A stretch of DNA of 64,000 nt. It comes from Naegleria gruberi. Its lineage: Eukaryota. The notes under the pieces were generated by a model, which saw only the letters and a list, made by a program, of their open reading frames with translations, was not told where the DNA came from and made no database searches. Below, one piece after another: positions 4,033-46,905 of the stretch. The first letter of the stretch is position 1; each line of letters begins with the position of its first letter. The stretch lies in NCBI GenBank assembly GCA_000004985.1, contig GG738881.1. One strand, written 5' to 3'. Made by a program: the position numbers and the translations under genes.

Positions 4033-5893
4033 ATGATTAGCACTTCAAGACCAAGTCTCTCTGGTTGGACAGAAATTTTCGATGAAAAACACCAGAGGTT
4101 TTATTATTTTAACCCATCAACTAATGAAACATCGTGGACACAGTAAGTAGTTTGGTTTCGTACACTTTCGTCAACTTTCGGATATAAAGTCCAAAAGAAC
4201 AAGAAACTCCAGCAGAACAACAACAACAAAATCATTCTTCTTCAACTTCTACAAATACAACAATAACAACAAATGAACTAGCACTTTCAACACTTTCTTC
4301 TAGATTATCCGAAACTGATAAAAAAAAGAAAATGGCAAAAAAGAAAAATCAAAGACGTTTTGCAAGTATAGCCGATCAATACTATCTCGTTTTCAAGAGA
4401 GTTAAAAAGTTAGAAGATGAGAAACCTTTAGGATATGATTCGTTAACAATCAAGGATAAATTTATCCTATTTCAATTATCACATTTGACATCTGTTAAAT
4501 CAGGTACAGTAAGATTAGCAGAAATGGAAAAGGAAATCAAAGAATCTGAAATGTTATTTTCATGTCTTAGAGGAGACACTCAAAAATTCACAGAATTAGT
4601 TTCCAAATATCCAAAGAAATTATCTGAAACTCTACCAACGTCCAAATTGAATATTTTACATTTAGGAGTAGCAAGTGGAAATATTCACATTGTAAAATAT
4701 ATAATTTCTCTGTTACAGAATATGAAATCAATTTCAATTGATCAAAATACTTTTAATGGATTAACTTCATTGCATATTGCTTGTTTATTTGGTTTATTTC
4801 AAATTGCTAGCTTGTTAATTGAGTTTGGTGGTGCAGATACTAATGTTACTTGTAATTGTATTCCAGTTGCTCCTCCTTATTTACAAAAACCACTTACTTA
4901 TTGGAATAATATTAAGGATTGTTCTGTAAATTCCTTTACACCATTCCTTTATGCTGTGTTTGGTGGTAGTTTGGAAACTGTTATCATGTTTGCCAATTTA
5001 GCAAAAGTTGGTGTTAGTATTGAACAGAATAGAACCGGTTTCATTACAGATGCACTTTCATTGGCCTGTATTTTACAACATGTTAAAATTGTTGAGCTAT
5101 TTTTGAGAGAGGATTATATTTTCAATTATGATCCTAATTGTATTGATGAATATGGTATGACTCCTATTATGTTTGTTGCCATGTCATCTGGAAATGCCAG
5201 TAAGTATTTAAATTCTCTATATTAGTTTAATGATTCATTTCATTGTTAATTCACATTCAAATTGTTAAACAATTGAATCATTCAGTTGTCGTTTCAAAAC
5301 TTGTTAAAAAGTCTGCAAGTATCGTTGGTGTGAATAGATTGAATGGCTACTCTTGTTTACACTTTGCCATCAATAATGGAAATTATGGATTCATCAAGAG
5401 ATTGTGTCAAGAGAAGGAAGGAAGTGAAGAATTGGCCCTCGTCTTGAGAACTCACAATGCCAAACAACCACTCAATCCACTTCAATATCTGAATAGTCCT
5501 GAAGCTCAAAATCAATTTACTCCCGAGCTGAGAAAAAAGACAGAAAATATTCTTAAAGCACATGGTGCTTCTGAAAAGAAAGGTTTCAGTGATATTGTAA
5601 AGGAAGGATATTTGACAAAACAAGGACACGTTGTCAAGAATTGGAAAAAGAGATGGTTTATTCTACGTGTTGGAGAATTGCAATATTTCAAGAGTATTCA
5701 AAAGCTTAAAGAGCCAACTGGTGCTATCAATTTGGAGAATGGAAGTTTAGCTAAAACTTATACGAAAAATTGTTTTGTCTTGTATGATTCAAAGAATGAT
5801 AAGAAATTTTTCATTCAGGCTGCAACAGATGAGGAAATGAAAGAATGGTGGGATGCTATCGCATTCTGCATATCTCATGCTGGTGGTCAATAA
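4033..5893 (+). CDS. WW-domain / ankyrin-repeat / PH-domain protein. Exons 4033..4142, 4190..5199, 5286..5893
   Basis: Exon 1 encodes GWTEIFDEKHQRFYYFNPSTNETSWT (WW domain). Middle exon has ankyrin repeats (LHLGVASGNIHIVKYII, LTSLHIACLFGLFQIASLLIE). Last exon has a PH domain (GYLTKQGHVVKNWKKRWFIL...EEMKEWWDAIAF). Introns have gtaagt donors and stay in frame. Confidence 0.8.
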
Positions 5894-6098
5894 ATAGTTT
5901 ATTAATATTTGAAATCACACTGCTTACCATAATTAGGAAAAGCAGAAGATGTTAGTTATTAAAAGGATCTCAGAATTTATGAAATAGGGCACATGAACAA
6001 GGTATGTCGCTTCTTTCAAGGAACTTCATGTTCGGTTCACTGAATCTCCCCTTAATTCCATCATGTAATCAACAGTTAATCCTCCTTAATTGATTTGG

Positions 6099-7599
6099 CT
6101 AATCGTGAGGATCTTTGGAATGTGGAGTTTCAATATCATGAGCTACGTGGTCTTTGTCTATTACATCCACACCTGCGAACTCGTTACAACCAAAAGAGTA
6201 CTCCCTTTCAAGTTCCTTCTCTTCTTTATCCTCATCGTTGGTATTTTGTGGTTTAACAGGAGATAAAGGTTTGGCACTTTTCACATTAGCTGAAACTGCT
6301 TGCTTTCTAGGAGAATGAAAGCTGTCTCCTCTTGGTGTCTTGCTTGGATGGGAGCCAGCACAGTTAATAACAATCTCTGAATTAACATCCCCTTCATAAA
6401 TTTCGGATCCAACAGTTCTTGGTGATTGTTGTGAACCCATTGTGTGGCTTCCATGTATTATTGAGGAAGCTCGCTTAAACTCGGCATGATGATCGTTGTG
6501 AAGTGTGTTTGTACTGTGAGATTTTGTTTCGATTGGGTGTATTCTCTTTCCGTCTGAAATTTTCTCAATCTTGTAAGAAAATGTGCTTTCTGTAATGGCT
6601 GCGCTTGATGTTTCCATTTGAGTAGTTTCAGTTTCCTCAGCTCTTTTGGCATTATTTGCAGCATTCTTTTCTTCCAACTTTTCCACTTGTAATCTTCTCT
6701 TTTCCATAATATATTCGTAAGTTGTCTGATTCCTGTAAACTGTTGGTTGGATTTGGTCAACTCTATTATTGTTAAAAAAAGCTACTTACTCAATTTGATA
6801 TGAAGAATAAAAAGCTGAGTTATTGAGAGAGCTACCATCAACGTAACAAGACCACCTAATGCTACATAACACAAGTGAGCTATAGGATGGCTGAAAGTAT
6901 AAACACTCAGAACTATTCAATAATAAATAACATTTAGAAATATGTGAACGTTTCCACTTACGTCTTTCACTGAAATCATCATACCATATACTGGAATCAA
7001 TAATGAAAATTACTTTGGCAAACACTGTGTAGAGTAATAACAGAAAAGTATCGCAAAGGAACACAAAGAACACTTTGTAGTTTCTTCTTCCAATGCACAT
7101 GTTCAACCATCTGCAATGATGATCAAACCCAGACACACATTTCATACATAATTTACAATGTTTGCTCGATTCATATCTAAAAAAGATCAATTAAGAATTC
7201 AATCCAAAACCTACACTATCAATTTACAATGTTGACAAAATACTATTTTCTTCCCTTCATAAATTGGGTCAACACCCTTATCTTTCATAATTAAATGTTC
7301 ATCAGCTGCATCAAAAAAAGTCAATATTAAATGTGTGATTGTACTCGTCGATCCCATTAAGAAATAAATTATTGTTGCTGGAACAAGAAATTCCACCCTC
7401 GCCACAGTGGAAATCATTAAATAGAAATCAAAATGTAAAAGTATCATGCCTATCCAGGCCAATACTTGAAAAACATCAACAGGCCACTGAAGGCCATGTT
7501 TCCTCCGAACATTTCTCTTCCGAATGCCTCCCTAATAATACTGTTGATCCAAACATTAATAATCAAGTTACCTACCTTGCAGTCACACCCGAGACACAT
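6099..7599 (-). CDS. DHHC-type palmitoyltransferase (zf-DHHC). Exons 7576..7599, 7215..7531, 6962..7176, 6790..6912, 6099..6739
   Basis: The spliced product reads [41 protein letters not shown], the canonical Cx2Cx9HCx2Cx2Cx4DHHC spacing. Multiple TM helices, with 38-50 nt introns. The C-terminal low-complexity tail is in the 202-aa ORF frame. Confidence 0.75.
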
Positions 7600-11159: not shown

Positions 11160-12392
11160 TTAAAGTTTTCTAATTGAGATACCTCCCACAAAATCGCAAT
11201 ACTTATATGCTGGACTCCAAATTCCACTATCATATTCAGTAGGCAGAACTGTATCACAAACCATTCCCTTTGAAATAACACGAATGGAATCAACTGTTTT
11301 TCCAATATTTGGTAATCTCCAAAAGAGTGATTGAGTTTCACATGGAACAAATGAATCAATGAGAGGAATTTGTTCATTGTGAAGAATAGTTGCCTTTCCT
11401 TGAGAGTTTGGTGCTGAAAGAAGGGCAATTTCCAAATGTAAATTTTGAATGGTTGTTGTGAGAGGGAGATTGGTATCTCTCTTTGTAGAGGATGGTGGTG
11501 CAACACATGGATATTTGACCTTAATGTTAAAATCATTTTCCTTGACAGGTGTCATTGAAACATCTAATGGGAATGCAGCAACTGCAAAGAATGGTTTAAA
11601 ACATGTCTTGTCATCATTTGGCTCTGCATGTTTCCACATGTTACAAAAATCACTGACAGAATATCTGACTGTAGTTGGGTTTCCATCTCTATCCCAAGGA
11701 TCCAACATGATAATATGAGATACTTGATTATTTGATGTTTCGTATCCAACAGCAACTCTATAGTGTCCTGAAGATGTTGGACTATCTTTGAATTTCATTA
11801 AACACATTACAGGAATATCATTCTTCAAAAATTGATTGACCAAACTATCAACCCAACATTTAGTTGTGGTATCTTGTCTGGCTTGTTCACATGGCAACAA
11901 GGTATTTCTATCAGGATAATACAATGTAACCAAACCAGAATGCTCGAAAATATTTGCTGGAATTGATGCAAATGAATTATTTGCCAAACCAAACCAACCA
12001 TTCTTTGGAGAAACTTCTGGAAATTGGATATAATGTTGACTTTGAGGAGTAGAACTAATTGGTGAAAATCTAGCTCCTCTCACAACATCCAAACTCAATG
12101 TTCCTGAATGATTTGAAGTTCTAGCAACATCAATAATAGCTCTCTGATCAATAAACTTTTCTCTATAATAATACGAGAGCACCATATTCAAAGAGGCATC
12201 ACCACATGAATAATCTGTGATTTGATGCAAATATGGCACGTTCATAATTTTGTCTTTGAGTGGCGATATCATCTTCAATTCTGCTCCTCTCACCACCTCC
12301 TGGATTCCGAAGAAGCACACAACAATCATCATGACAATAAATGCATTAATAGGTGCACACCCATCAGAGTGATGACTCACTTTTGGAGACAT
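11160..12392 (-). CDS. Secreted/membrane-anchored peptidase C39-like (papain-fold) domain protein
   Basis: N-terminal hydrophobic segment, then ITDYSCGDASLNMVLSYYY ... SGHYRVAVGYE, which resembles the Cys and His blocks of Peptidase_C39_2-type domains. Single exon. Confidence 0.6.
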   Translation of the reverse strand: MSPKVSHHSDGCAPINAFIVMMIVVCFFGIQEVVRGAELKMISPLKDKIMNVPYLHQITDYSCGDASLNMVLSYYYREKFIDQRAIIDVARTSNHSGTLSLDVVRGARFSPISSTPQSQHYIQFPEVSPKNGWFGLANNSFASIPANIFEHSGLVTLYYPDRNTLLPCEQARQDTTTKCWVDSLVNQFLKNDIPVMCLMKFKDSPTSSGHYRVAVGYETSNNQVSHIIMLDPWDRDGNPTTVRYSVSDFCNMWKHAEPNDDKTCFKPFFAVAAFPLDVSMTPVKENDFNIKVKYPCVAPPSSTKRDTNLPLTTTIQNLHLEIALLSAPNSQGKATILHNEQIPLIDSFVPCETQSLFWRLPNIGKTVDSIRVISKGMVCDTVLPTEYDSGIWSPAYKYCDFVGGISIRKL

Positions 12393-33784: not shown

Positions 33785-36119
33785 TTATTGGAAAAAGTTG
33801 GATTGTTTGAGTTCATTGATGAGGAGAGGGATTTTAGGATCTTCATTCGATGTTTCCATTTCTTGAATGACTTTCATAAATTCTTCATCAAGTGAAACAT
33901 TAATGGTCAATTTGTTCATCTTGAAAAGTGTGAATAGACATTTCACAATAATGAATGAAACTTTAACCTTTTCCTTTCTGAGCTTCATCACTTCAACAAG
34001 TTTGGAGGCAAAATCTGGATGAAGAGTTAAGAGTTTGTTGGCATTTTCTTCATTATTAAAGATGAGATTAATCAATGACTCTAATGAGTAGAAGCACACA
34101 ATGAAGTGAATGTCATTGGTAGCTAATTTGTAGAGAGTTGTTAAAATATTATTGTGACGATTGATAATTTCATTTTGATTTTCTCTGGCCTTAGTTAAAT
34201 TGGAGAAGGCAAAGAGAGCATTAACCATCAAACTGATATCAATTTCAGAGTAATCAGTTGCTTCTGCTAACATTTCAAACATTTCTACGAGTGGAATAGT
34301 TGCTCCACTTTCAACAATATATTTACAAGTAACATCTGTAATAAGAGGTTAGAAAATCACCACTTAGCTCAATAATACAAACCTGTAGTTCCCATATTAC
34401 CCAAGGCAATACAACAATTTCTTTGAATGAAATTATTCATTTGAGTAGCGATAGGGCTGGCTTCTTGATATTCTGGAGATAATTGGTTGTGATACAAGAC
34501 GCTTAAGATCTTTGTCAAAGATTGAACTACGCCCTTTTCAATCATCATTGGAAGGTTACGACCTATATCAATAAAGATTCGCAAATTAAGATATTTGCAA
34601 ATAAATTTTGAAACTTACGTTCAAGAGCAAGGAATCCTAAAAGTTTAACAACAAATCTCAAAAGCTTGGAAGAGGAGGCAATTTGCAAGGTACTCAAAAT
34701 AGATTCAATGAGTGTGAGCATTGGGTCAATCAAGTCCAATTCTGTGGCCATATAATATTGGATGTGATCAATTTCTGCAACATTTGAAAGGAACTCAACA
34801 ACACTTTCTTGCATTCTCTTTCTGAATTCTGGAAGTTGAGTATGTGAGTGCACGAATCTCTTCAATGTATTAATAAAATCTTTAGAATCCTTTACCAAAA
34901 CTTCAGCCCACTTATTATTGACCTTAACGAGAGAAACATCCAATAAATGAATAACTTGAGTGACAATTTCTTGGACAGATTCTTCATCCTCATCCTCATT
35001 TTCATCCAATGATTCAGAAATTTGAATATATCTCATTAAAATATTATCCAATGATTGAATAAGATTAGAATGTTCAATTGTGAGCTCATTGAATTCCTCT
35101 AAAGAAATTGTTAATTATTGAATATAATTATTACTGATACTTACTGTGTGATCCGACTAATCCAACCAATTTAATGGCAACACCAAGAATATTTCCTTCA
35201 CATAATGGATTTGCAAGAATTTCATCAATAATAATATCGAGAGCATTCTTTGATTCTACTTGTGATGTCATGATTTGTTCGCAAGCCTCTTGAACTTCAC
35301 AAACATTTTCCAAGGCTCTCAATGAGTGATAAAGTACTCCACTAACCTCATTACTTCTATAAGTGTAAATGAGTTTAATGAGTGAAGTCACACCACCATA
35401 AGAAACAACCTTTCTTCTAACACCATCTGCAAATGTAAGAAATCAATAGTTCAATAATAACAACTTACCATCTGAGTGTGCAAAATTTGCAATACAAGCA
35501 CAAACGCTTCTAATCAAATTAACATCATCATGATCTAAAGCAAATTGGATAAATCCACAAACAATTTGTACAACAGGAACCGACAATCCTTCTTCATCAC
35601 AAATAATCAAAGCATTAACAGAGTGTTCAAAACATAAATTACCCAAAACTCTACACAATTGGAAATAGAGTGGTAATTTATCTGTTTCCAAAGTTGTGGT
35701 ATGTCTACGTAATAATCCACAAATCACAGGCACTCCACCAACTTCTCTAATTGTATCTCTATTAATTACTATTTAATTAATCAGTACACATTTGAAATTT
35801 AAAACTACTACTACTAACATTCTCTGGACAAGTCTCCTAATTTTTGACAAGCATCAGTTAAATCAGAAACATTAGATTCCAAATTTCCGATAAGTGTTAA
35901 CATTAATCTAATATCTCCAATATTAACATTCTCTTCGATCATCTCCAACATGTTCTTCCTTTCTTCAATTTCCTTTGATTGTTCATCGTCGTTTTGTTGA
36001 TGAATATTATTGATTGCTTCGTTTTCAGCAGCTGATGATGATGGAATCATTTTTTTAATGTATTGATGAGTTCTTTCTTCGGTGCAACTTCTCTCCATCA
36101 ATTGCAGCGGGATAATCAA
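33785..36119 (-). CDS. Armadillo/HEAT-like helical-repeat protein (SmgGDS/Rap1GDS1-like guess), about 6 exons. ORF pieces 35814..36119, 35443..35733, 35131..35391, 34563..35051, 34369..34584, 33785..34282
   Basis: Six same-strand ORFs joined by 43-50-nt introns (verified: gttagt...aaatag at 35759-35805 and gtaagt...tttgcag at about 35392-35437). Repeated LxxLxNL/ALENVCE helical-repeat motifs. Confidence 0.55.
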
Positions 36120-38002: not shown

Positions 38003-41000
38003 TTATTTACTTAAATTCTTAACTTGGTCCTTAATTTCTTTAACTTGTTTGCTATCTGTTTGAAGAATCTTTCTACATAATTCGAGAGCTCCTGACTTGT
38101 CAACTTGTGACATGTAATTCTGAGCAATCTTTGAGAAGAGAAGTAAAATACTGACAGCCAATTCGTTATCAGTGAGAATGTATGATTGAACTGCCTTGAC
38201 AATAATCTTCATATCATCAATAGAAAGTTTGATAACATCGTAATGTACACAAATCGAATGTAAAATGTTTGAAATGATAGTGCAAACACTCTTATCGATT
38301 GAAGTGTCTTTGAGTTTCTGCACGAGGGTTGAGATAATCTTTTCTCTCAAATCATAGGTAATCAAATTTTGAACAAGAGCTTGCTCCTCAGTTTCCTTGA
38401 ATTGAGTGAATGGCATAATTTCTAACAAGAGATTCAAAGCCATTGTAAGAGTAGTATTCTTGGATGAATTTTTTGTAACGATATCCAAGAGAGCAACATG
38501 GAAACCAAATGTACTAGCAAATTGGGTACCAGCTGTTTCCTTATTATGATTCAAATGTTTCGTGAACAAGCTCAATACCATTTCTTGTAATTCAGGATCT
38601 CCAAAACCAAATGAAAGAATCAAAACTCTAACATTGGTATAAACATTTCTATCAGCTTGTTCGTCCATTGAAATATCGTTCCATCCCTTGTTTAAACTGT
38701 CTGGGTAATTCTTCTCAATATCGTTCAAGAATTCAACACAATATGACAAGATCCAACCTTCTTCAGGATATTTAGACAAAATGCTAAAGAAGATTGAATT
38801 GAAATCAGAGGCCAGAATTTCAATCAGCTTATCCTTATCATTTCTATTTCTGTAAATTACATTCAAAATAGTTAAAATGTTGGTAACTGTTTCCTTATTC
38901 TTCAAATTCAATTGGAGTAAGTTCTTGAATGATTTCAATACGAGAGGAGAATCAGATAATTCTGAAAAGATTTTTGTAACGTATTGGTTATTTCCACTAC
39001 TGTTTGTTAGTAAACTTGTAACACCTCCTTGAGTTACCATAATCTTTGTCATTTCTGCTTTGGCTGTGCTCTCCTTGGCTGTCAGAGCAACAAATTTAGT
39101 GAATGGAATTAAAATTACATTCAATTCGCAATTCATCATATTCAATTTGAAATCATCAAAGTTGTTTCCAAGTAATAAGAAAGCTTGAGATGGAGCAATA
39201 GAAGTGAATGATAAATGTCCATTTCCATAGAAATATACCAAATACTTGACAATCACATCAAATGCCAACAATCTCTTACTCATATTCTTTAAAGATTCCA
39301 AATTATGCAAGCAAATGTTATTCAATAAATTAAATAAACTTCTGGACAAGTCGAACAAGTACAAGTATTCCTTTTGTGTGTAAAGTGTAGTCATTACTTC
39401 TTCACAATACTTGATGATGAAATCGAGTTGTTTTTGAGAGATTAATTCATTCAATTGTTCATTTGGTCTCTCACACAATAATCCCAATAATTGCAAAGAA
39501 AGTGAAATAACTGTTACATTTTCAAAGTTATTAATTGGAGCATTTGAGTTATTTGGAAGGTTGTTTGCATTGAACAATTTGAATTTCAGGTAATGTTCAT
39601 TGATAATCTTGTGCAATGAATTAACCAAACCAGTTAATCTCATCATTGCCTTGGCTGGTTCATTGTTACCAGACTTAGTTACCAAAATATTGTTACAAAT
39701 TAACAAGCCAATCAGGCAAATAGAGTAGGATCTGGTGTTATCATTCAACATGCAAACACATGCTTGCAAACCTTCATTTGAAACAATATCCTCAACAAGT
39801 GAAGCAGCATCCTTCTTGTAACGTTCATAGAGATATTTGGCAGCATTCAATGCACGTTTGTGACTTTGTGAATTATATTCCAATTCTTCAATGAGTTGTG
39901 AAATATCGTCAATTTTTGGAATTTCGTCATCTTCATCTTCTATTGGTTCATCTTCTTCTCCTCCAGATGGTGGAAGAGGAGAATAATCAAATGAAGGATC
40001 GACCAATGAGTATTCTACTTTCGTTTTCAAGTTTGGTTTAGAGTCTGACTTGGTAAATGATGGTTTCTTTGTTTGAATTTCTTCCTCTTCTTCTTCATCT
40101 GATTCGTCTTTCAGAACTGTCTTTTTACTTCTTGGACCACTTGTTGACGGTTTCTTATTGGTAGCAGATGAAATTACTGGCTCATCTTCATCCTCATCAA
40201 GTTTGAGAGTTTTAGTTGGGGCCTTCTTGTCACTCTTAATTTCCTCTTCTTCATCTGAATCGTCATCTTTGAGAACTGTTGTCTTTTTCTTATTTGGAGG
40301 ACCCCCACTTGCTGTAGCAGTTGGTCTAGGGTTTGATGTAACTTTCTTTGATACAATCTTTCCATCATCATCTGAATCAGAATCATCCTTCAATACACTA
40401 GTTTTAGATTTAACTGGAGCAGTAGAAGTTGGCTTGCTGGTTTTAACAGGAGATGCTTGTTTAACATTCTTATTTGATGCCTTTTTAGTGACAATAATAT
40501 CTTCCTCTTCATCACTATCACTTTCCAAACGTGCTGTTGATGTCAAAAGTGGTGTAACCTTACTAACTTGTTCATCCTTGACATTTCTAACAACTGCACT
40601 TTCTAACTTGATTGGCTCTTCTTCCTCCAATTCTTCAGGTTCCATTTCTGCTTCCAATGGTTCAATTTCAGCAGGTTGAATTTCTTCCAATTCTTCATTC
40701 TTGACCTTTTTAACATCCTCAATTTTTTCTTCCTTCTTTGGAGATGATTTTTCTTCACTCACAACTGAAGATGAAGCCACTGCTGATATTGTTGATGAAG
40801 ATGATTGTATTGTTGCACTTGTTTGTGGTTTAACAGTTTCAACAACATTATCATTTGGTTGTTTAACAGTAATAACCATATTTGAATTGCTAGTATTGGC
40901 ACTTCCCTTGCCAATTAACTTTTTAATACTTTCAATCCATTCCTCTGCTTCCTCCTTTGATGAGCATTCAAATGTCCATTCTTCTTCTTTTTTCTTTCCT

Positions 41001-41257
41001 TCAATGTGTGATTTAACATAGAAACAGAATGGATGTTTCTTTGTAAATTCCAAATTAGTGATAGTATGAGCAGAGTCAAGAATTAAAGTTGATTTTCTTT
41101 CCTTTCCATCGGACGAAAGAATGGAAAGTGAATTTGGATGTGAGTTGAGTGAAATGAGTGTTTTCTTCCATGATAACATGCCACTCTTCTTTACTTCACC
41201 CTGTTTGACTAGTTTGTAATGGATGGGTGTTGTGGCAGCATCAATGGATTGCATCAT
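38003..41257 (-). CDS. PH-domain protein with acidic triple repeat and C-terminal ARM/HEAT-like region (about 1080 aa)
   Basis: N-terminal PH domain (GEVKKSGMLSWKKTLISLN...WTFECSSKEEAEEWIESIKKLI). Three ~40-aa repeats around K(K/T)(T/S)VLKD(D/E)SD(S/E)(D/E)(D/E). Long helical C-terminal part. Single exon; ATG probably at the MMQSID site. Confidence 0.7.
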   Translation of the reverse strand: MMQSIDAATTPIHYKLVKQGEVKKSGMLSWKKTLISLNSHPNSLSILSSDGKERKSTLILDSAHTITNLEFTKKHPFCFYVKSHIEGKKKEEEWTFECSSKEEAEEWIESIKKLIGKGSANTSNSNMVITVKQPNDNVVETVKPQTSATIQSSSSTISAVASSSVVSEEKSSPKKEEKIEDVKKVKNEELEEIQPAEIEPLEAEMEPEELEEEEPIKLESAVVRNVKDEQVSKVTPLLTSTARLESDSDEEEDIIVTKKASNKNVKQASPVKTSKPTSTAPVKSKTSVLKDDSDSDDDGKIVSKKVTSNPRPTATASGGPPNKKKTTVLKDDDSDEEEEIKSDKKAPTKTLKLDEDEDEPVISSATNKKPSTSGPRSKKTVLKDESDEEEEEEIQTKKPSFTKSDSKPNLKTKVEYSLVDPSFDYSPLPPSGGEEDEPIEDEDDEIPKIDDISQLIEELEYNSQSHKRALNAAKYLYERYKKDAASLVEDIVSNEGLQACVCMLNDNTRSYSICLIGLLICNNILVTKSGNNEPAKAMMRLTGLVNSLHKIINEHYLKFKLFNANNLPNNSNAPINNFENVTVISLSLQLLGLLCERPNEQLNELISQKQLDFIIKYCEEVMTTLYTQKEYLYLFDLSRSLFNLLNNICLHNLESLKNMSKRLLAFDVIVKYLVYFYGNGHLSFTSIAPSQAFLLLGNNFDDFKLNMMNCELNVILIPFTKFVALTAKESTAKAEMTKIMVTQGGVTSLLTNSSGNNQYVTKIFSELSDSPLVLKSFKNLLQLNLKNKETVTNILTILNVIYRNRNDKDKLIEILASDFNSIFFSILSKYPEEGWILSYCVEFLNDIEKNYPDSLNKGWNDISMDEQADRNVYTNVRVLILSFGFGDPELQEMVLSLFTKHLNHNKETAGTQFASTFGFHVALLDIVTKNSSKNTTLTMALNLLLEIMPFTQFKETEEQALVQNLITYDLREKIISTLVQKLKDTSIDKSVCTIISNILHSICVHYDVIKLSIDDMKIIVKAVQSYILTDNELAVSILLLFSKIAQNYMSQVDKSGALELCRKILQTDSKQVKEIKDQVKNLSK

Positions 41258-41488
41258 TTTTTTTCTATGATGTTTTGATTTGTAAACATTTGACAAGTGG
41301 CGAAACCCTTTCTTTAAAAAAACAATTAAATGTTTTCCAAATGTAATTGCATCCAACACTTTCAATTATATTATTAATAATATGTTAATGTTATCATTGT
41401 TTGTTGTAAACGTTGTTTTTCATATTAATTCTTTGTTTTTGTAAATTAAACTTTTGAAATAAAATCAAAAGGAAAATAGGAAATAAAA

Positions 41489-42373
41489 ATGTCTTCAAAT
41501 CAACAAGGAGTTGAAAATAATACCAAGCAAAATCTCTCATCGGAACGTTTTGCAGTTAATATTTCTAATCATGTGGGTACTGTCGTATTAAATAGACCAA
41601 AGAAGATGAATGTGATGGACAAACCATTCTTCTCTGAATTTTATCAAGCCATTCATAGATTGAATGAATCAGATGATGTTTATGTTATCGTATTGAAGAG
41701 TACACCTGTTGATCAGTGTCCGCACTTCTCTGCTGGATTGGATTTGAAGAGTGTTGCCTCTGATATTATGCCATCAGCTTCCGATGATGAATCTTCTCCT
41801 GCTGTGGCCAATTTGAAATTATCAAAATTAATTAATGAAATGCAACAAGCTTTTAGAATTTTGGAAACTTGTAAGAAACCAGTGATTGCTGCTATTAATG
41901 GAATGTGTATTGGTGGAGCTATTGATATGATTCTTGCTGCTGATTTTAGAGTTTGTACAAAGGATGCTATTTTCAGTATTAGAGAAACCGCTGTTGGAAT
42001 TACTGCTGATTTGGGTACTTTGAATAGAATTCACAGAGTTGTTGGAAAGGGTTTTGCAAGAGAAATGGCATTCACTGCTGCTGATGTTAAGGCAGATCGT
42101 GCTTATCATTTTGGACTTGTCAATCAAGTATTCGATTCTCAAAAGGAAATGTTTGAAGCTGTTGACAAGATGGCTAAAACTATTGCTTCTCACTCTCCTC
42201 TCATTGTTCAATCTACAAAACATATTATGAATCATGCTGAAGAACATTCAATTGAGGATGGATTGGCCTATGTCAAACTTTGGAATAGTGCTTTCTTGAA
42301 ATCTGATGATTTAACTGAAGCTTTCATGTCATTCATGGAAAAACGTAGACCTAAATTCAAGAATAAATTGTAA
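41489..42373 (+). CDS. Enoyl-CoA hydratase/isomerase family protein (ECH1 dienoyl-CoA isomerase-like)
   Basis: Crotonase fold motifs (FSAGLDLK, AAINGMCIGGAIDMILAADFRV, ETAVGITADLGTL). C-terminal -NKL may act as a weak PTS1. Confidence 0.8.
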   Translation: MSSNQQGVENNTKQNLSSERFAVNISNHVGTVVLNRPKKMNVMDKPFFSEFYQAIHRLNESDDVYVIVLKSTPVDQCPHFSAGLDLKSVASDIMPSASDDESSPAVANLKLSKLINEMQQAFRILETCKKPVIAAINGMCIGGAIDMILAADFRVCTKDAIFSIRETAVGITADLGTLNRIHRVVGKGFAREMAFTAADVKADRAYHFGLVNQVFDSQKEMFEAVDKMAKTIASHSPLIVQSTKHIMNHAEEHSIEDGLAYVKLWNSAFLKSDDLTEAFMSFMEKRRPKFKNKL

Positions 42374-43302: not shown

Positions 43303-45356
43303 ATGTGGGCAAACTCTGTTCTCAAATGGGCAGAACAAACATTGGAAACTGTGGATAGAAGCACAGCAGGAGCATCTAAAAAACTGACAACATTGGGGAA
43401 ATTGGATGATGATTCGGAAAGTAGAATTGATTCTTCGGTTCATGAAGATGAATCAAAGAATGTTGATCACTATAAATCATCGGAAGAAGGTACTGCATTT
43501 GTTACAGCAAATCATACTGCATTAACATCAACAACAAATAGTGTTGCTGTTGAAAATGTTAATTTTGATAAGATCAGAGAAGAGGCGGAGGAGGAATTGA
43601 TGAATGAATTCTTCAAGAAGAGTGAATCGGAAAGATTGGAAGAAGCCTTGCAGTTTGTAAAGGATTGTGCAAATTCATCAATTATTGGAGAAACTACTGT
43701 CCAAGTGGAAGGAGATGAAACTTTGAAGCAAAATCAAGAAATTTCCAATGAGAAATCAATTGTTACTCTCTATGATCAAGTGAAGAAAGTTGAATACTTT
43801 AACAAGAATTTAAAAGAACATTTCGACAAGTTAACTTCTCAATCAAAACATTCACAACGTTATAATGCCGAATCACAGAATGTAAGTACCTCTGGAAATA
43901 GCATGAATATTTAAATATTTGAAGAGATTGGAAGAACAAGTTTCAAGACTTTTGGAAGAGAAAGTTAAAACAGACACAGAGTTAACAAATACACTCAATG
44001 AACGTGATAAACAAGCCCAAAAGTATCAATCGAGGGTTGATGCACTAGTAGAGCAAATGAAATTGAAAGATTTATTGATTTCAGAAATGCAAGGAGAAAA
44101 AGACATGTACGTTTTATTATTATTATTGATTATAAATTAATTTTAATAATAGGATGGCAAATGAGCAATTAAGATATGAAAAATCAACTGCTGAAGAAAT
44201 TACCAAACTGAAACAACAAATTGAAGACCTCCAAAATCAACAAAAGGAAAATAAGAAAGAGGAAAAACAAATCCACAAAAAGATGGAAGAATTGGAACAT
44301 AAACACCAAGAAGCTGTTAAAAAGCTTAAAGAAGAATACTCTGAATTGGAATCTACTCTCAATGAGAAATTGGATGAAATATCTAGATTGGAATCCAATA
44401 TCAAGTTGAAAGAACAAGAATGGCAAGCTAAAAATCAAGAATATTTGGAATACAAGAACAGAGCCGCCAAACTCTTATCTGTGAGAGACAAACAAATCGA
44501 AGAATTAAAAAAGTCTGGAACCGAATCAGGTGATAAAAAGGAAGAAACTGCTACAGATGACGACACTGATTTAATGAATGCCTTGGATAAAGAGGACATG
44601 CTCTTGGATTTGGAAAACTTGAAAGCTGATAATCAAGAACTTCAATCACAAATTGAGCTGATGAAAAAGCAACACGAAGCTGAAATGAATACACTCAGAT
44701 TCAAATTGAAAAATATGGAAAAGAATCTTGAAAAAGAGAAACAGTTGAGCGCTAAATACCAAGAAAATATAACCTCATTGAAACTTAATTTTGATGAAAT
44801 GAAGCATCAATATGAAAATGAAAAGAAGCTCATTAAAGATCAATTGAAGGAGAAGAAGGAAGAAATTAATCAACTTCAAAAGCAACTCAATCAAGCCAAA
44901 TATAATAATTCATCCAATCAAAATGAGCTTGAACTGAGAAATAGAGCCATGGCTGAAAGACTCATTGAGAAACAGTCCCAACTCGAAACTGTAAACAGTG
45001 AAAAAGCAGCCATCCAACTTGATTTGGAAAAATGTCAATTGAAGATTAAGGAACTTCAACTGATAGCTCAGGTTACACCAATTTCTAGAAATTATGCCGA
45101 TGAAGAATCACCATTTGATAATGAAGCACCATCGGTTTCTGTAAAATCAGATAGATTCTTTAGAGATTTATCAAAGAGAGGTTTTGTTGCCAGGCGAGTG
45201 GCTCATGTTATGGCCTTTATTGATTCATTTTCAATTTCAACTGGAAGTATTTTGAGAAGATTACCACTTTTGAGAATTTTACTTGTTATTTATATTATAA
45301 CTCTTCACATATGGGTCTTTTACATTTTATCCCATTTGGCTCATCTCTCTCAGTAA
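43303..45356 (+). CDS. Tail-anchored coiled-coil golgin (golgin-84/CASP-like). Exons 43303..43881, 43925..44106, 44153..45356
   Basis: Long coiled-coil followed by the conserved RxxxRxxxH...F motif and a single C-terminal TM (LLRILLVIYIITLHIWVFYILSHL). Introns gtaagt...tttgaag and gtacgt...taatag. Confidence 0.65.
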
Positions 45357-45438: not shown

Positions 45439-46392
45439 ATGGAAAAAGAACACAACACGGAAGAAACAAGCAATAAAAATTCATCTTGTTTGTCGTCATC
45501 ATTGGAAAGAGTGAAAGCATTCACAGAGCAACATCATCTCATTCCAAAAGAACCCTCACAGAATGATGATTCGGAATCACAACAATCGATAGTAGCATCA
45601 GAATCAAAAAATTTGAAATTTAAAATTGATGATGATGAATTCACTACAAAAAGTCATCGTATCATGTGCATTGATACCTTTCCCAAAATTCCATATTCTG
45701 ATGAAAATAAGAGAAATAGAAATGCACTTCATTGGGGACAACGTAAATTACTTTTATCAGAAATTGAATTTCTTACCGAATATTCACATGATGGAGATGT
45801 CGTGATTTATGCTGGAGCTGCTCCAGGTAGTCATTTAGTTTATTTAGCAGAGGTTTTATTTCCCAATCTCAAATTTATGCTTGTGGATCCAAATAAGTTT
45901 AATAAGGATTTGTATCATGTTAGAAATGTAACAATTATGGAAAGTTATTTCACAGACGAAATTGCAATGGAAATTAAAAAGATTAGGAATATTGAAAGTG
46001 GAAATAATTTACTATTTATTAGTGATATTAGAACTGCTGATCCACTAGTTATGGATCCAGAACAAAATGAAAAATGTATTACGGAAGATTTAACATTACA
46101 AAAAGGATGGTTGGAAATTTTACTCCCTCGATTCAGTATGTTAAAATTCAGACTCCCATTTACAGAAGGTAAAATTAAATACTTTAGAGGTGATATTTAT
46201 TTACCAGTTTGGGGTAGAAAATGGACAACTGAATGCAGACTTGTCATTAAGGAGGAGGATATCAAAGATTCCAATCAAATTGAATATGATAATCTTTCTT
46301 ACTCTGATCAATTATTCTATTTTAATAATATTACAAGATTTGAAAATATTTATCCACATGACATTTGCTCAGATGGGGTGGACAATTGGTAA
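45439..46392 (+). CDS. Poxvirus VP39-like cap-specific mRNA (nucleoside-2'-O-)-methyltransferase (PAP regulatory-subunit family), intronless
   Basis: Aligns with vaccinia VP39 as recalled from memory, block by block: HWGQRKLLLSEIEFL (HQGQLKLLLGELFFL), VVIYAGAAPGSHLVYL (VVYIGSAPGTHIRYL), LLFISDIRT (IILISDVRS), LKFRLPF (LKWRCPF), YFRGDIYLPVWG (FYIPHGNKMLQPF). Confidence 0.8.
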   Translation: MEKEHNTEETSNKNSSCLSSSLERVKAFTEQHHLIPKEPSQNDDSESQQSIVASESKNLKFKIDDDEFTTKSHRIMCIDTFPKIPYSDENKRNRNALHWGQRKLLLSEIEFLTEYSHDGDVVIYAGAAPGSHLVYLAEVLFPNLKFMLVDPNKFNKDLYHVRNVTIMESYFTDEIAMEIKKIRNIESGNNLLFISDIRTADPLVMDPEQNEKCITEDLTLQKGWLEILLPRFSMLKFRLPFTEGKIKYFRGDIYLPVWGRKWTTECRLVIKEEDIKDSNQIEYDNLSYSDQLFYFNNITRFENIYPHDICSDGVDNW

Positions 46393-46569
46393 GTGATCTT
46401 GTTGTTGTATAATTTTTTACTGAACTTGCAACTACGGTAAAGCTATGACTGTAGATCAGAGATTTTAATTTTACAAAACTTTATCAAGAAATTTCCAGAA
46501 AGAAAGAAAGACATCACCTGTAGTGAAGATTATGAAACCATTAATGAGAATGAAATAATTTCACAATGG

Positions 46570-46905
46570 ATGTCTGACATTTCTCATCAAATCTCCACTA
46601 AAAAGAGAACGTTGATTCACATGCCAGACACATCCATATTTAACTTTGGGCCTACAATTCACCTTCACCCTCAACAACAAAATTGCAAAGAGTGGCTTGA
46701 TATGAGAAATATGGTTTTGCAGAGGACAAAACAGTTTTCCCAAAAGGTTCATTCAAAATCATATCATGCATCTAGTTCACAATCTTTTACACCAACAGAG
46801 ATGGAATCAACTACAGTTTCTGAAAGTACACAATTGGATGATGATAATTATGAACAAACAAAGAAGAGGAGACGTAGAAAGAAGAAAAAATCACATGTAC
46901 AATAA
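46570..46905 (+). CDS. Small hypothetical protein with basic KKRRRRKKKK tail (NLS-like)
   Basis: 111-codon ORF downstream of the VP39-like gene. Coding status uncertain. Confidence 0.3.
   Translation: MSDISHQISTKKRTLIHMPDTSIFNFGPTIHLHPQQQNCKEWLDMRNMVLQRTKQFSQKVHSKSYHASSSQSFTPTEMESTTVSESTQLDDDNYEQTKKRRRRKKKKSHVQ

What the first reader, a model, noticed from the sequence alone, without database searches (positions are those of the whole stretch)
45439..46392. Poxvirus/NCLDV-type VP39 cap 2'-O-methyltransferase encoded as an intronless gene in an amoebozoan-like genome
The 317-aa product aligns block-for-block with vaccinia VP39 as recalled from memory, including the SAM/cap-binding core (VIYAGAAPGSH, LFISDIRT, LKFRLPF). 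VP39 is the PAP regulatory subunit and cap-specific nucleoside-2'-O-methyltransferase. Eukaryotes normally use FtsJ/CMTr-type cap methyltransferases. VP39-like enzymes are characteristic of poxviruses and giant viruses, and of only a few protist lineages. The gene has no intron while most neighbours carry 40-50-nt introns, which fits acquisition from a nucleocytoplasmic large DNA virus or an endogenised viral fragment now fixed between host genes. If it is expressed, the organism may carry a second, virus-derived cap1 methylation system.
Basis: partly seen in the sequence, partly recalled or inferred. Interest (0 to 1): 0.75.

Follow-up and report, generated by a model that had tools for sequence, protein, structure and literature searches.

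The report
Naegleria VP39-family cap methyltransferase gene
This is an already annotated Naegleria gruberi nuclear gene for a VP39-family mRNA cap ribose methyltransferase; it has a normal host intron and keeps its chromosomal position in related species, so it is an ordinary resident gene and not a recently captured giant-virus fragment.

Summary
The ORF at 45439-46392 is real and belongs to the VP39 / PF01358 family (111 bits; only VP39 among solved structures; K103-D196-K236-E265 intact). Three parts of the finding are wrong.

1. The genome is Naegleria gruberi (Heterolobosea, Discoba), not an amoebozoan. The gene is NAEGRDRAFT_69984 / XP_002674895.1, already named a cap 2'-O-methyltransferase in UniRef. 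A 2011 paper already reports an N. gruberi member of this branch.
2. The gene is not intronless. Its 'stop' lies inside a GTAAGT splice donor. A 54-nt intron (46389-46442) joins a second exon (46443-46905), giving a 470-aa protein. Splicing restores family-invariant residues and adds 53 bits to the family score.
3. Recent viral capture is not supported. The same intron position occurs in N. fowleri and a third species. Gene order is colinear with N. fowleri over about 18 kb. Codon usage matches the host, and all 30 scanned window ORFs are cellular. Naegleria has at least two further paralogs, and the family occurs in many eukaryotic supergroups.

The deep origin (virus or cell) stays unresolved: giant-virus and cellular homologues are equally distant (about 40-46% identity) and the tree is star-like. 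Which cap nucleotide is methylated cannot be inferred. Low interest; the useful by-product is a corrected gene model.

The parts
45439..46388 (+). Exon 1 of NAEGRDRAFT_69984 (codons 1-316 plus the first two bases of codon 317). It includes a poorly conserved N-terminal region (aa 1-~75) and most of the VP39-like methyltransferase domain.
   Evidence: ORF list. Pfam PF01358 covers aa 85-309. The N-terminal 'QHHL' patch is shared with the N. fowleri and P0002 orthologues, which supports the start at M1 over M76 of the public 242-aa model.
46389..46442 (+). Spliceosomal intron: 54 nt, GTAAGT...AAG, phase 2. The apparent stop codon TAA (46390-46392) lies within the donor site.
   Evidence: Read directly from the sequence. 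Splicing is in frame and rebuilds a Cys codon, TG|C. An unbiased scan of the window recovers the same intron. It is the best of all AG acceptors against a family HMM built without the window-clade sequences: 385.4 bits spliced versus 332.0 unspliced. N. fowleri has an intron at the same position and phase (108 nt; L001 10927-11034) and so does L060 (146 nt).
46443..46905 (+). Exon 2 (codons 317-470 plus stop TAA at 46903-46905). It holds the end of the catalytic domain (CYDCRSEILIL), a C-terminal extension conserved within Naegleria, and a basic tail.
   Evidence: The translation continues the family consensus DHCYDCxAExxILxxYL. It supplies invariant D319 and E323 and near-invariant C317, C320, R372 and L374. 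phmmer of aa 325-470 against the N. fowleri model gives E 1e-21. The conserved coding sequence starts 127 nt upstream of the first ATG of this reading frame (46570), so it is not an independent gene.
45691..46455 (+). VP39-like (PF01358) methyltransferase domain, aa 85-321 of the spliced product. The interval includes the intron.
   Evidence: Pfam scan of the 470-aa product: 110 bits, aa 85-321 matched to profile positions 17-257 of 292. AlphaFold2 model of exon 1: pTM 0.79, core pLDDT above 90. The top 21 Foldseek PDB hits are all VP39, E 4e-17 to 4e-15; the next hit is at 7e-7.
45802..45834 (+). SAM-binding glycine-rich motif VIYAGAAPGSH (aa 122-132).
   Evidence: Aligns to VP39 VVYIGSAPGTH. 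Y124, G126, G130 and H132 are invariant in the family alignment.
45745..45747 (+). Catalytic K103 (equivalent to VP39 K41).
   Evidence: HMMER alignment to VP39 and the family alignment; invariant.
46024..46026 (+). Catalytic D196 (equivalent to VP39 D138).
   Evidence: invariant.
46144..46146 (+). Catalytic K236 (equivalent to VP39 K175).
   Evidence: invariant or near-invariant.
46231..46233 (+). Catalytic E265 (equivalent to VP39 E207).
   Evidence: invariant.
46861..46890 (+). Basic cluster KKRRRRKKKK (aa 457-466), a candidate nuclear localisation signal.
   Evidence: Present in the spliced translation. Similar clusters occur in N. fowleri (KRKKRRKHKKRNKK) and L060 (KKRRRRKHKR). The NLS function is inferred and was not tested.

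Best explanation
The feature is a resident nuclear gene of Naegleria gruberi: NAEGRDRAFT_69984, two exons, 470 aa. It encodes a SAM-dependent, cap-specific RNA ribose 2'-O-methyltransferase of the VP39 / TbMTr2 family.

Likely mechanism (inferred from homology, not tested): the Rossmann-fold domain binds S-adenosylmethionine through the YAGAAPGSH / D150 motifs. An aromatic pocket (F241 and probably Y86) positions the capped 5' end of an RNA. The K103-D196-K236-E265 tetrad then transfers a methyl group to the 2'-OH of one of the first transcribed nucleotides. The C-terminal basic tail suggests the enzyme works in the nucleus on host Pol II transcripts.

The gene was already in the common ancestor of N. 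gruberi and N. fowleri, and it is one of at least three VP39-family paralog groups in Naegleria. Shown here: family membership, intact catalytic and SAM-binding residues, gene structure, synteny and host-like composition. Inferred: splicing in vivo, enzyme activity, nuclear location. Unknown: which nucleotide is methylated, and the ultimate (viral or cellular) origin of the family.
For: Family and fold:
- PF01358 at 111 bits on the ORF and 110 bits on the spliced product.
- VP39 is the only PDB sequence relative, E 1e-17.
- AlphaFold2 pTM 0.79; the top 21 Foldseek hits are all VP39, followed by a gap of ten orders of magnitude.
- K-D-K-E and the SAM-contact residues Q101, Y124, G126, G130, D150 and R198 are conserved.

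Host residency:
- 100% identity to an N. gruberi protein.
- 17 N. fowleri gene products map colinearly to window 33.3-51.2 kb, with the orthologue directly after Golgin_A5.
- The intron position and phase are shared by three species, with lengths of 54, 108 and 146 nt.
- Splicing adds 53 bits against a family HMM built without the window-clade sequences.
- GC 0.318, GC3 0.244 and codon-usage distance 0.109 all fall within the neighbours' ranges (0.341+-0.026, 0.260+-0.035, 0.104+-0.021).
- All 30 scanned ORFs in the window are cellular.

Distribution:
- Paralogs NAEGRDRAFT_70140 and the N. lovaniensis A and B proteins.
- Homologues in Willaertia, Pharyngomonas, Euglena, Thecamonas, Monosiga (nine introns plus a G-patch), Capsaspora, rotifers, amoebozoans, dinoflagellates, Palpitomonas and Pterocystis.
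- Werner et al. 2011 (PMC3113572) list N. gruberi in the TbMTr2 branch.
Against: - No transcript or protein evidence was available, so splicing and expression are inferred only from conservation.
- The residue equivalent to the m7G-contacting E233 of VP39 is S289 (A in N. fowleri). It is E in every other family member compared, so cap recognition may differ or be weakened.
- The nearest relatives outside Naegleria include proteins on giant-virus contigs (P0004 on a 534-kb contig; P0005 on GVMAG-M-3300005538-5). They score as well as cellular homologues: 236 bits versus 229-247.
- The NJ tree cannot place the Naegleria clade: 0.48 with paralog A, 0.38 with a giant-virus clade.
Confidence: 0.8

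Rival explanations
1. One reading: a recently endogenised fragment of a nucleocytoplasmic large DNA virus (or a recent single-gene transfer) that happens to lie between host genes and has not been adapted to the host.
For: The family is abundant in giant-virus MAGs: 48 of the 52 IMG/VR loci with homologues (the other four proved to be RNA viruses), at 28-47% identity. The two best hits outside Naegleria lie on giant-virus-like contigs. A giant virus that infects Naegleria is known (PMC11043551, listed).
Against: - A spliceosomal intron typical of the host, conserved in position in three species.
- The orthologue sits at the syntenic position in N. fowleri, at only 51-56% aa identity, so the gene is old.
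- Codon usage and GC3 cannot be told apart from the neighbours'.
- No viral hallmark genes in 64 kb.
- The best viral identity is only about 46%, no better than cellular homologues.
Confidence: 0.03
2. Ancient transfer followed by domestication: an ancestor of Naegleria (or of Heterolobosea) acquired this paralog from a giant virus. The gene then gained an intron, a C-terminal extension and host codon usage. It now functions as a host gene.
For: - In the NJ trees the window clade is a long, isolated branch, and a giant-virus clade (P0004/P0005/L007) is among its nearest neighbours (0.38).
- The intron is not shared with Monosiga or with Naegleria paralog A, so it was gained in this lineage.
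- The literature describes the whole family as horizontally mobile between viruses and unicellular eukaryotes (PMC3113572; PMC4615557; PMC13393146).
Against: - The best NJ neighbour, though weak, is Naegleria paralog A (0.48), which would favour a duplication within the cell lineage.
- All deep nodes have bootstrap values near zero.
- The direction of any transfer (virus to cell or cell to virus) cannot be read from these data.
Confidence: 0.15
3. The protein keeps the fold but has changed function. Loss of the E233-equivalent cap contact would make it a ribose methyltransferase for a different 5' end (for example a trimethylguanosine or unmethylated cap, or an internal site), or a regulatory or inactive paralog.
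For: The E233 equivalent is S/A/S in the three orthologues but E in all ten other sequences compared. The Y204 equivalent is W only in this clade and T (A in Naegleria paralog A) in the other non-VP39 sequences compared. The clade is the most divergent of the Naegleria paralogs: about 40-46% identity to others, against 50-56% for paralog B.
Against: K-D-K-E and all SAM contacts are intact and conserved across three species at 51-59% overall identity, which indicates purifying selection on catalysis. The aromatic F241 (VP39 F180) and the acidic E243 (VP39 D182) are retained. An acidic residue (D290, or E in N. fowleri) directly follows position 289 and might replace the lost glutamate.
Confidence: 0.1

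Closest known systems
[quoted passage not shown]
   Same: Same Pfam family (PF01358), same fold (Foldseek E about 1e-16, TM about 0.6), same K-D-K-E tetrad, the same SAM-binding motif, and an aromatic residue at the F180 position.
   Different: Only about 30% identity over 214 residues. E233 is replaced by S289. The Naegleria protein has about 80 extra N-terminal residues, a family-specific CYDC motif and a 150-residue C-terminal extension with a basic tail. It is an intron-containing cellular gene. Nothing suggests a VP55-type poly(A) polymerase partner, so the 'PAP regulatory subunit' role should not be transferred.
Trypanosoma brucei TbMTr2 (TbCom1/TbMT48, cap2) and TbMTr3 (cap3) methyltransferases
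   Same: Cellular, nuclear-encoded VP39-family enzymes in the same supergroup (Discoba). Werner et al. 2011 place an N. gruberi protein in the TbMTr2 branch (PMC3113572).
   Different: I could not obtain the trypanosome sequences, so orthology of this particular paralog to TbMTr2 was not tested. Trypanosome enzymes act on the spliced-leader cap4; no hypermethylated cap has been reported for Naegleria in the papers I read.
Acanthamoeba castellanii medusavirus Cap3MTase (YP_010801901.1 = P0137)
   Same: Same subfamily of the HWGQRKL / YAGAAPG / CYDC type, at 38% identity over 343 residues to the window protein. Biochemically shown to be cap-dependent and SAM-dependent (PMC13393146).
   Different: It is viral. 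It methylates the third nucleotide and keeps the E233-equivalent glutamate. It is closer to Naegleria paralog B (52-53% identity) than to the window gene.
N. gruberi paralog NAEGRDRAFT_70140 (XP_002674806.1, 569 aa) and N. lovaniensis paralogs A (XP_044544000.1) and B (XP_044545782.1)
   Same: Same family and same organism or genus, with intact catalytic residues.
   Different: 40-46% identity to the window protein. Different N- and C-terminal extensions. They retain E at the E233 position. Paralog A has no intron at the CYDC site.
CMTr1 / CMTr2 (FtsJ-type, PF01728) cap methyltransferases of animals and many protists
   Same: Same chemistry (K-D-K-E Rossmann-fold ribose 2'-O-methylation of cap-adjacent nucleotides). 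Some eukaryotic VP39-family members even carry CMTr1-like accessory domains (G-patch, WW).
   Different: A different family. FtsJ-type and NS5-type structures appear only from Foldseek E about 1e-6 onward. Whether Naegleria has any CMTr-type gene was not tested here.

Membership tests
VP39-like cap-specific ribose 2'-O-methyltransferase (Pfam PF01358) | Significant match to the family profile above the curated threshold | tested here: met
   111.4 bits (ORF) and 110 bits (spliced product) against a cutoff of 25.4.
VP39-like cap-specific ribose 2'-O-methyltransferase (Pfam PF01358) | Catalytic K-D-K-E tetrad (VP39 K41/D138/K175/E207) | tested here: met
   K103, D196, K236 and E265, all invariant or near-invariant in 35- and 52-sequence alignments and aligned to VP39 by HMMER and MAFFT.
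VP39-like cap-specific ribose 2'-O-methyltransferase (Pfam PF01358) | SAM-binding Rossmann fold with a glycine-rich motif and an acidic residue at the end of strand 2 | tested here: met
   VIYAGAAPGSH (aa 122-132) and D150 are conserved. The AlphaFold2 model shows alternating beta/alpha elements, pTM 0.79.
VP39-like cap-specific ribose 2'-O-methyltransferase (Pfam PF01358) | Three-dimensional similarity to VP39 in preference to other ribose methyltransferases | tested here: met
   Foldseek against the PDB: ranks 1-21 are VP39 chains (E 4e-17 to 4e-15). The next hits are BTV VP4 at 7e-7, then RlmM, NS5 and FtsJ.
VP39-like cap-specific ribose 2'-O-methyltransferase (Pfam PF01358) | m7G cap-binding pocket (aromatic sandwich Y22/F180; acidic D182 and E233) | tested here: inconclusive
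   F241 aligns with F180 and E243 with D182. E233 aligns with S289 (A in N. fowleri), with D290 adjacent. The Y22 region could not be aligned; the near-invariant Y86 is a candidate.
VP39-like cap-specific ribose 2'-O-methyltransferase (Pfam PF01358) | Cap-dependent methyl transfer to the 2'-OH of a defined cap-adjacent nucleotide | not testable with these tools
   Needs biochemistry. Characterised relatives act on nucleotide 1, 2 or 3 (PMC3113572, PMC4615557, PMC13393146).
Poxvirus poly(A) polymerase regulatory (processivity) subunit | Heterodimer with a VP55-type catalytic poly(A) polymerase | not tested
   No VP55-like gene was seen among the 30 window ORFs scanned, but the rest of the genome was not searched. 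The Pfam name is historical and should not be read as a function here.
Recently endogenised giant-virus element / recent NCLDV-derived gene | Adjacent viral hallmark or other virus-like genes | tested here: not met
   The neighbours are Golgin_A5, cyclin, enoyl-CoA hydratase, PH, RGS, eIF2-alpha, ClpB, Ebp2, a mitochondrial carrier and others.
Recently endogenised giant-virus element / recent NCLDV-derived gene | Composition or codon usage deviating from the host | tested here: not met
   GC3 0.244 versus 0.260+-0.035; codon-usage distance 0.109 versus 0.104+-0.021 for 28 window ORFs.
Recently endogenised giant-virus element / recent NCLDV-derived gene | Absence of spliceosomal introns | tested here: not met
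   A 54-nt GTAAGT...AG intron, with position and phase conserved in N. fowleri and L060.
Recently endogenised giant-virus element / recent NCLDV-derived gene | Insertion absent from the syntenic locus of related species | tested here: not met
   The orthologue lies directly downstream of Golgin_A5 in N. fowleri, within a block of 17 colinear matches.
Recently endogenised giant-virus element / recent NCLDV-derived gene | Phylogenetic nesting inside a viral clade | tested here: inconclusive
   NJ trees with 200-500 bootstraps: the Naegleria clade has support 1.0, but its sister is unresolved (paralog A 0.48; a giant-virus clade 0.38).
Orthologue of trypanosome TbMTr2 (cap2 methyltransferase) | Specific phylogenetic grouping with TbMTr2 | not tested
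   No trypanosome sequence could be retrieved. Werner et al. 2011 place 'Naegleria gruberi' in that branch without my being able to tell which paralog.

The most novel reading that the evidence does not exclude
Naegleria, like its distant discoban relatives the kinetoplastids, may rely on a set of three VP39-family paralogs, not on CMTr-type enzymes, to methylate several cap-adjacent nucleotides. This divergent paralog has a remodelled m7G pocket (E233 to S/A, and a clade-specific Trp at the Y204 position). It could be specialised for a particular position or for a non-canonical cap. If so, multi-position cap methylation by VP39-type enzymes would predate the Euglenozoa.
Probability: 0.12. Interest if true: 0.5.

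Novelty: already known. Interest (0 to 1): 0.15.

Why it matters
It matters little beyond housekeeping. The gene is in the public N. gruberi annotation and UniRef already calls it a cap 2'-O-methyltransferase. Werner et al. (2011) already noted VP39/TbMTr2-type enzymes in N. gruberi and other protists and called the family horizontally mobile.

Three results are useful:
- A corrected gene model: 470 aa in two exons, against the public 242-aa single-exon model, which is truncated at both ends.
- A clear demonstration that an apparently 'intronless virus-like ORF' was an artefact of a stop codon inside a GTAAGT donor.
- A small testable oddity in the cap-binding pocket of this paralog.

For the wider question of whether cap ribose methyltransferases moved from viruses to cells or from cells to viruses, this locus shows only that any transfer predates the N. 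gruberi / N. fowleri split.

Tried and rejected
- IMG/VR scan with the single protein found nothing. It worked only with an alignment.
- Exact-sequence look-ups of the N. gruberi models P0001 and P0129 found no contigs, so I could not examine the N. gruberi paralog locus.
I modelled exon 1 only, so the C-terminal CYDC segment and the extension are unmodelled.
- NJ phylogenies (167 taxa and 83 labelled taxa; gamma-corrected p-distances; 200 and 500 bootstraps) did not resolve the sister group of the Naegleria clade. No ML software was available.
- Shared-intron test. Paralog A of N. lovaniensis has no intron at the CYDC site. None of the nine Monosiga introns coincides with the Naegleria intron (nearest is 7-8 codons away). 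Thecamonas is intronless. So intron positions say nothing about deep ancestry.
- Test for a shared derived C-terminal extension. phmmer of Ng aa 325-470 hits only the N. fowleri orthologue. The 'CYDC-RSE' variant occurs in 25 sequences of mixed origin. Neither is informative.
- Literature search for the locus tags returned nothing. Papers on Naegleria giant viruses and methylomes gave background only.
- Four 'viral' loci that I had labelled as giant viruses in the trees (L040, L042, L043, L054) are RNA viruses (one search confirmed L040 and L054). This does not affect the conclusions.
- I did not run the large representative-protein search, because family size was not in doubt.
Full report

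Yes for the ORF and its family. No for three descriptive claims.

A 317-codon ORF runs from ATG 45439 to TAA 46392 on the + strand. Its product matches Pfam PF01358 (PARP_regulatory, the VP39 family) at 111.4 bits, E 5e-32, against a curated cutoff of 25.4. Among 177,635 distinct PDB sequences, the only hits are vaccinia and monkeypox VP39 chains (E about 1e-17, query 90-307 against VP39 28-251).

In the HMMER and MAFFT alignments the VP39 catalytic tetrad K41/D138/K175/E207 corresponds to K103/D196/K236/E265. The SAM contacts Q39, Y66, G68, G72, D95 and R140 correspond to Q101, Y124, G126, G130, D150 and R198. All are invariant or nearly so across 35-52 homologues.

An AlphaFold2 model of the ORF (mean pLDDT 80.4, pTM 0.79, core above 90) finds VP39 structures at Foldseek ranks 1-21 (E 4e-17 to 4e-15). 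The next hit, bluetongue virus VP4, is at 7e-7, followed by RlmM, flavivirus NS5 and FtsJ. Family membership is therefore solid.

**2. Which organism and which gene?**

The best database hit is 100% identical: 'predicted protein [Naegleria gruberi]', XP_002674895.1 / EFC42151.1 / NAEGRDRAFT_69984 / UniProt D2VM22. [quoted passage not shown]

Naegleria is a heterolobosean (Discoba), not an amoebozoan. The window's 33% GC matches the published value (PMC8296547). The public model is only 242 aa (M76 to W317).

**3. The gene is not intronless.**

Two results did not fit an ORF ending at W317. The family consensus continues past it ('...GEGxDHCYDCxAExxILxxYL...'). The N. fowleri orthologue model (XP_044568471.1, 566 aa) equals the orthologous ORF plus the next ORF downstream.

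The window sequence reads GAC AAT TG|GTAAGTG...GGTAAAG|C TAT GAC TGT AGA TCA GAG. The TAA 'stop' is bases 2-4 of a canonical GTAAGT donor. Removing 46389-46442 (54 nt, GT..AG, phase 2) rebuilds a Cys codon. The frame then reads on as ...GVDN|CYDCRSEILILQNFI... to a TAA at 46903-46905, giving a 470-aa product.

Evidence that this splice is real:
- Exon 2 supplies residues that are invariant (D319, E323) or nearly invariant (C317, C320, R372, L374) in the family.
- I built a family HMM without the window-clade sequences. Against it the spliced product scores 385.4 bits, the unspliced ORF 332.0, and every other AG acceptor after this donor at most 345.6.
- An unbiased scan for short GT[AG][AT]GT...AG introns that join two long ORF pieces recovers exactly this intron. 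It also finds about 18 other donor sites in the window, whose shortest solutions are mostly 42-57 nt.
- N. fowleri has an intron at the same codon and phase (AATTG|GTAAGT...AAAAG|TTATGATTGT, 108 nt). So does a third Naegleria-like species (L060: GACAATTG|GTATGT...CCAG|TTATGACTGT, 146 nt).
- The part of exon 2 beyond the catalytic domain is conserved with N. fowleri (phmmer E 1e-21). All three species end with a Lys/Arg-rich cluster (KKRRRRKKKK, aa 457-466).

The conserved 'QHHL' patch upstream of M76 also suggests that translation starts at 45439 and not at the public model's M76. Published statistics give 1.7 exons per gene for N. gruberi. One short intron is therefore typical of a host gene, and lack of introns would not have been diagnostic anyway. 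No transcript data were available, so splicing is inferred and not observed.

**4. Is it a viral insertion?**

The local evidence says no.
- *Synteny.* Seventeen N. fowleri gene products from a 21-kb locus map in the same order and orientation to window 33.3-51.2 kb, at 33-77% amino-acid identity. In both species the VP39-like gene directly follows Golgin_A5 (44154-45356). P0003's cluster contains N. fowleri FDP41_007673.
- *Age.* The orthologues are only 51-59% identical, so the gene predates a deep split within the genus.
- *Composition.* GC (0.318), GC3 (0.244) and codon-usage distance to the pooled window ORFs (0.109) all lie within one standard deviation of 28 neighbouring ORFs.
- *Neighbours.* All 30 larger ORFs scanned in the 64-kb window carry ordinary cellular domains or none. 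They include P450, VPS9, ankyrin, PH, CobW, Myb, a mitochondrial carrier, SANT, PP2C, homeobox, a nucleoside transporter, Ebp2, ECH, cyclin, golgin, RGS, eIF2-alpha and ClpB. No capsid, packaging ATPase, primase or viral polymerase was found.

**5. How widespread is the family?**

Far wider than 'poxviruses, giant viruses and a few protists'. Two database searches returned more than 1,200 relatives each. Named cellular sources are:
- *Heterolobosea:* N. gruberi (a second paralog, NAEGRDRAFT_70140), N. lovaniensis (paralogs A and B), Willaertia magna (two), Pharyngomonas kirbyi (two).
- *Euglenozoa:* Euglena gracilis and E. longa.
- *Obazoa:* Thecamonas, Capsaspora, the choanoflagellates Monosiga, Choanoeca and Didymoeca, and Brachionus rotifers.
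- *Amoebozoa:* Mastigamoeba, Flabellula, Ceratiomyxa, Soliformovum.
- *Other groups:* the dinoflagellates Polarella and Gymnodinium, Palpitomonas, and Pterocystis.

Several carry eukaryotic accessory domains (G-patch, WW, RRM, ankyrin). The Monosiga gene has nine introns and a G-patch.

The literature already covers this. Werner et al. [quoted passage not shown] The 2015 review repeats that TbMTr2 and TbMTr3 are VP39 relatives (PMC4615557).

**6. What about a deep viral origin?**

This cannot be settled here. The two best hits outside Naegleria lie on contigs with giant-virus character: dense small ORFans, intein/homing-endonuclease domains, DUF5710, SNF2 and dNK. One contig is 534 kb. The other is the IMG/VR giant-virus MAG GVMAG-M-3300005538-5. 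IMG/VR holds 52 loci with homologues at 28-47% identity.

Cellular homologues are equally close. BLASTP bit scores to the spliced protein are:

| Sequence | Bits |
|---|---|
| Naegleria paralog A | 247 |
| Naegleria paralog B | 237 |
| Giant-virus P0004 / P0005 | 236 |
| Thecamonas | 229 |
| Medusavirus | 218 |
| VP39 | 80 |

I built neighbour-joining trees on 283-303 trimmed columns, with 200 and 500 bootstraps. The three orthologues group at 1.0, the dinoflagellates at about 1.0, and several viral clades are well supported. The backbone is a star. The window clade joins Naegleria paralog A at 0.48 and then a giant-virus clade at 0.38.

Two rare-change tests were uninformative: intron positions are not shared with paralog A, Monosiga or Thecamonas, and the C-terminal extension is unique to the orthologues. 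The supported statement is this: the gene has been a resident of the Naegleria lineage since before the N. gruberi / N. fowleri split. Whether that lineage first obtained it by duplication of a cellular paralog or from a virus is open. I put ancient viral acquisition at about 15% and recent insertion at about 3%.

**7. How it most likely works.**

By homology (inferred, not tested), the protein binds SAM in the Rossmann-fold pocket, docks a capped RNA 5' end, and uses K103-D196-K236-E265 to methylate a ribose 2'-OH next to the cap. The basic C-terminal cluster suggests nuclear import and action on host Pol II transcripts.

The target position cannot be assigned. VP39 methylates nucleotide 1, TbMTr2 nucleotide 2 and TbMTr3 nucleotide 3. 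The medusavirus enzyme YP_010801901.1 (P0137 here, 38% identical to the window protein) methylates only nucleotide 3 in vitro (PMC13393146). I also could not test whether Naegleria has a CMTr-type enzyme at all. The Pfam label 'poly(A) polymerase regulatory subunit' reflects a poxvirus-specific second function and should not be transferred.

**8. One oddity.**

In VP39, E233 contacts m7G. The PDB holds E233A and E233Q mutant structures (1EAM and 1EQA). The equivalent residue is Glu in all ten other family members compared, including both other Naegleria paralogs. It is Ser, Ala and Ser in the three orthologues of the window gene. The Y204-equivalent position is Trp only in this clade.

F241 (VP39 F180) and E243 (VP39 D182) are retained, and an acidic residue follows position 289. 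This may mean a modified cap pocket. It is the basis of the low-probability 'novel case', and I give about 10% to a changed-substrate or inactive reading.

**9. Verdict.**

This is a real, correctly classified VP39-family gene, but an ordinary, previously annotated and previously published host gene. The features that made it look exotic (no intron, amoebozoan host, viral island) do not hold. Novelty: already known. Interest: about 0.15. The practical outcome is a corrected two-exon, 470-aa gene model for NAEGRDRAFT_69984.

Noticed in passing
L040 78-6392 (also L042, L043); L054 64-6813: Some IMG/VR 'viral' homologues are RNA viruses, not giant viruses. L040 is a 2104-aa replicase polyprotein with a PF01358 VP39-like methyltransferase (aa 944-1166), an SF1 viral helicase and RdRP_2. 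L054 is a mononegavirus-type L protein (Mononeg_RNA_pol plus the capping region) whose C-terminal methyltransferase carries the HWGQRKL motif and just passes PF01358 (25.7 bits). So the VP39-type domain also circulates in RNA viruses.
   Followed up: partly
window 45664-46392 versus 45439-46905: The public N. gruberi model XP_002674895.1 (242 aa, M76 to W317) appears truncated at both ends. It misses about 75 N-terminal codons (the conserved QHHL patch) and the whole of exon 2 (154 codons), because the stop inside the GTAAGT donor was taken as the gene end.
   Followed up: yes
window 38003-41365 (-): A 1120-aa ORF with a PH domain lies between the RRM gene and the enoyl-CoA hydratase gene in N. 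gruberi. It has no counterpart at the syntenic N. fowleri locus (L001 goes from 5081 to 5329), so it is a lineage-specific insertion or loss inside an otherwise colinear block.
   Followed up: no
window 41489-42373 (+) versus L001 5329-5856 / 6021-6329: The enoyl-CoA hydratase gene is a single ORF in N. gruberi but split into two ORF pieces in N. fowleri. This is probably intron gain or loss between the species.
   Followed up: no
P0011 (MEM3062935.1, 'MAG: Nitrososphaerota archaeon', 4.5-kb contig): A protein labelled as archaeal is a VP39-family member 48% identical to the Naegleria protein. It is almost certainly a giant-virus or eukaryotic contig placed in the wrong bin.
   Followed up: no
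P0109 (Soliformovum irregulare transcriptome) with P0004 / P0005 / L007: An amoebozoan transcriptome sequence groups with giant-virus MAG proteins (bootstrap 0.87 with labelled taxa). Either a viral transcript in the culture or a recent exchange between virus and host.
   Followed up: no
window 11160-12392 (-): A 410-aa ORF with a Peptidase_C39_2 domain (papain-like, mostly bacterial), E 2.7e-11. This is an unusual domain for a eukaryotic gene and a possible bacterial acquisition.
   Followed up: no
window aa positions 289 and 262 of the product (46303-46305 and 46222-46224): Clade-specific substitutions at VP39 cap-contact positions. The E233 equivalent is S/A/S, and the Y204 equivalent is W, in the three Naegleria orthologues only.
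   Followed up: partly
L060 3-1454: In the third Naegleria-like species (environmental contig, JGI 3300002220) the gene upstream of the VP39-like gene shows no similarity to anything in the window. Downstream synteny (the window 48269 ORF) is kept, so the upstream boundary of the syntenic block differs there.
   Followed up: partly
window 43882-43924, 34563-34618, 35099-35144, 35427-35468 and others: Candidate short GTAAGT introns (42-57 nt) in neighbouring genes. Several of them also hide a stop codon at or near the donor, so other single-ORF gene models in this region may be truncated in the same way.
   Followed up: no
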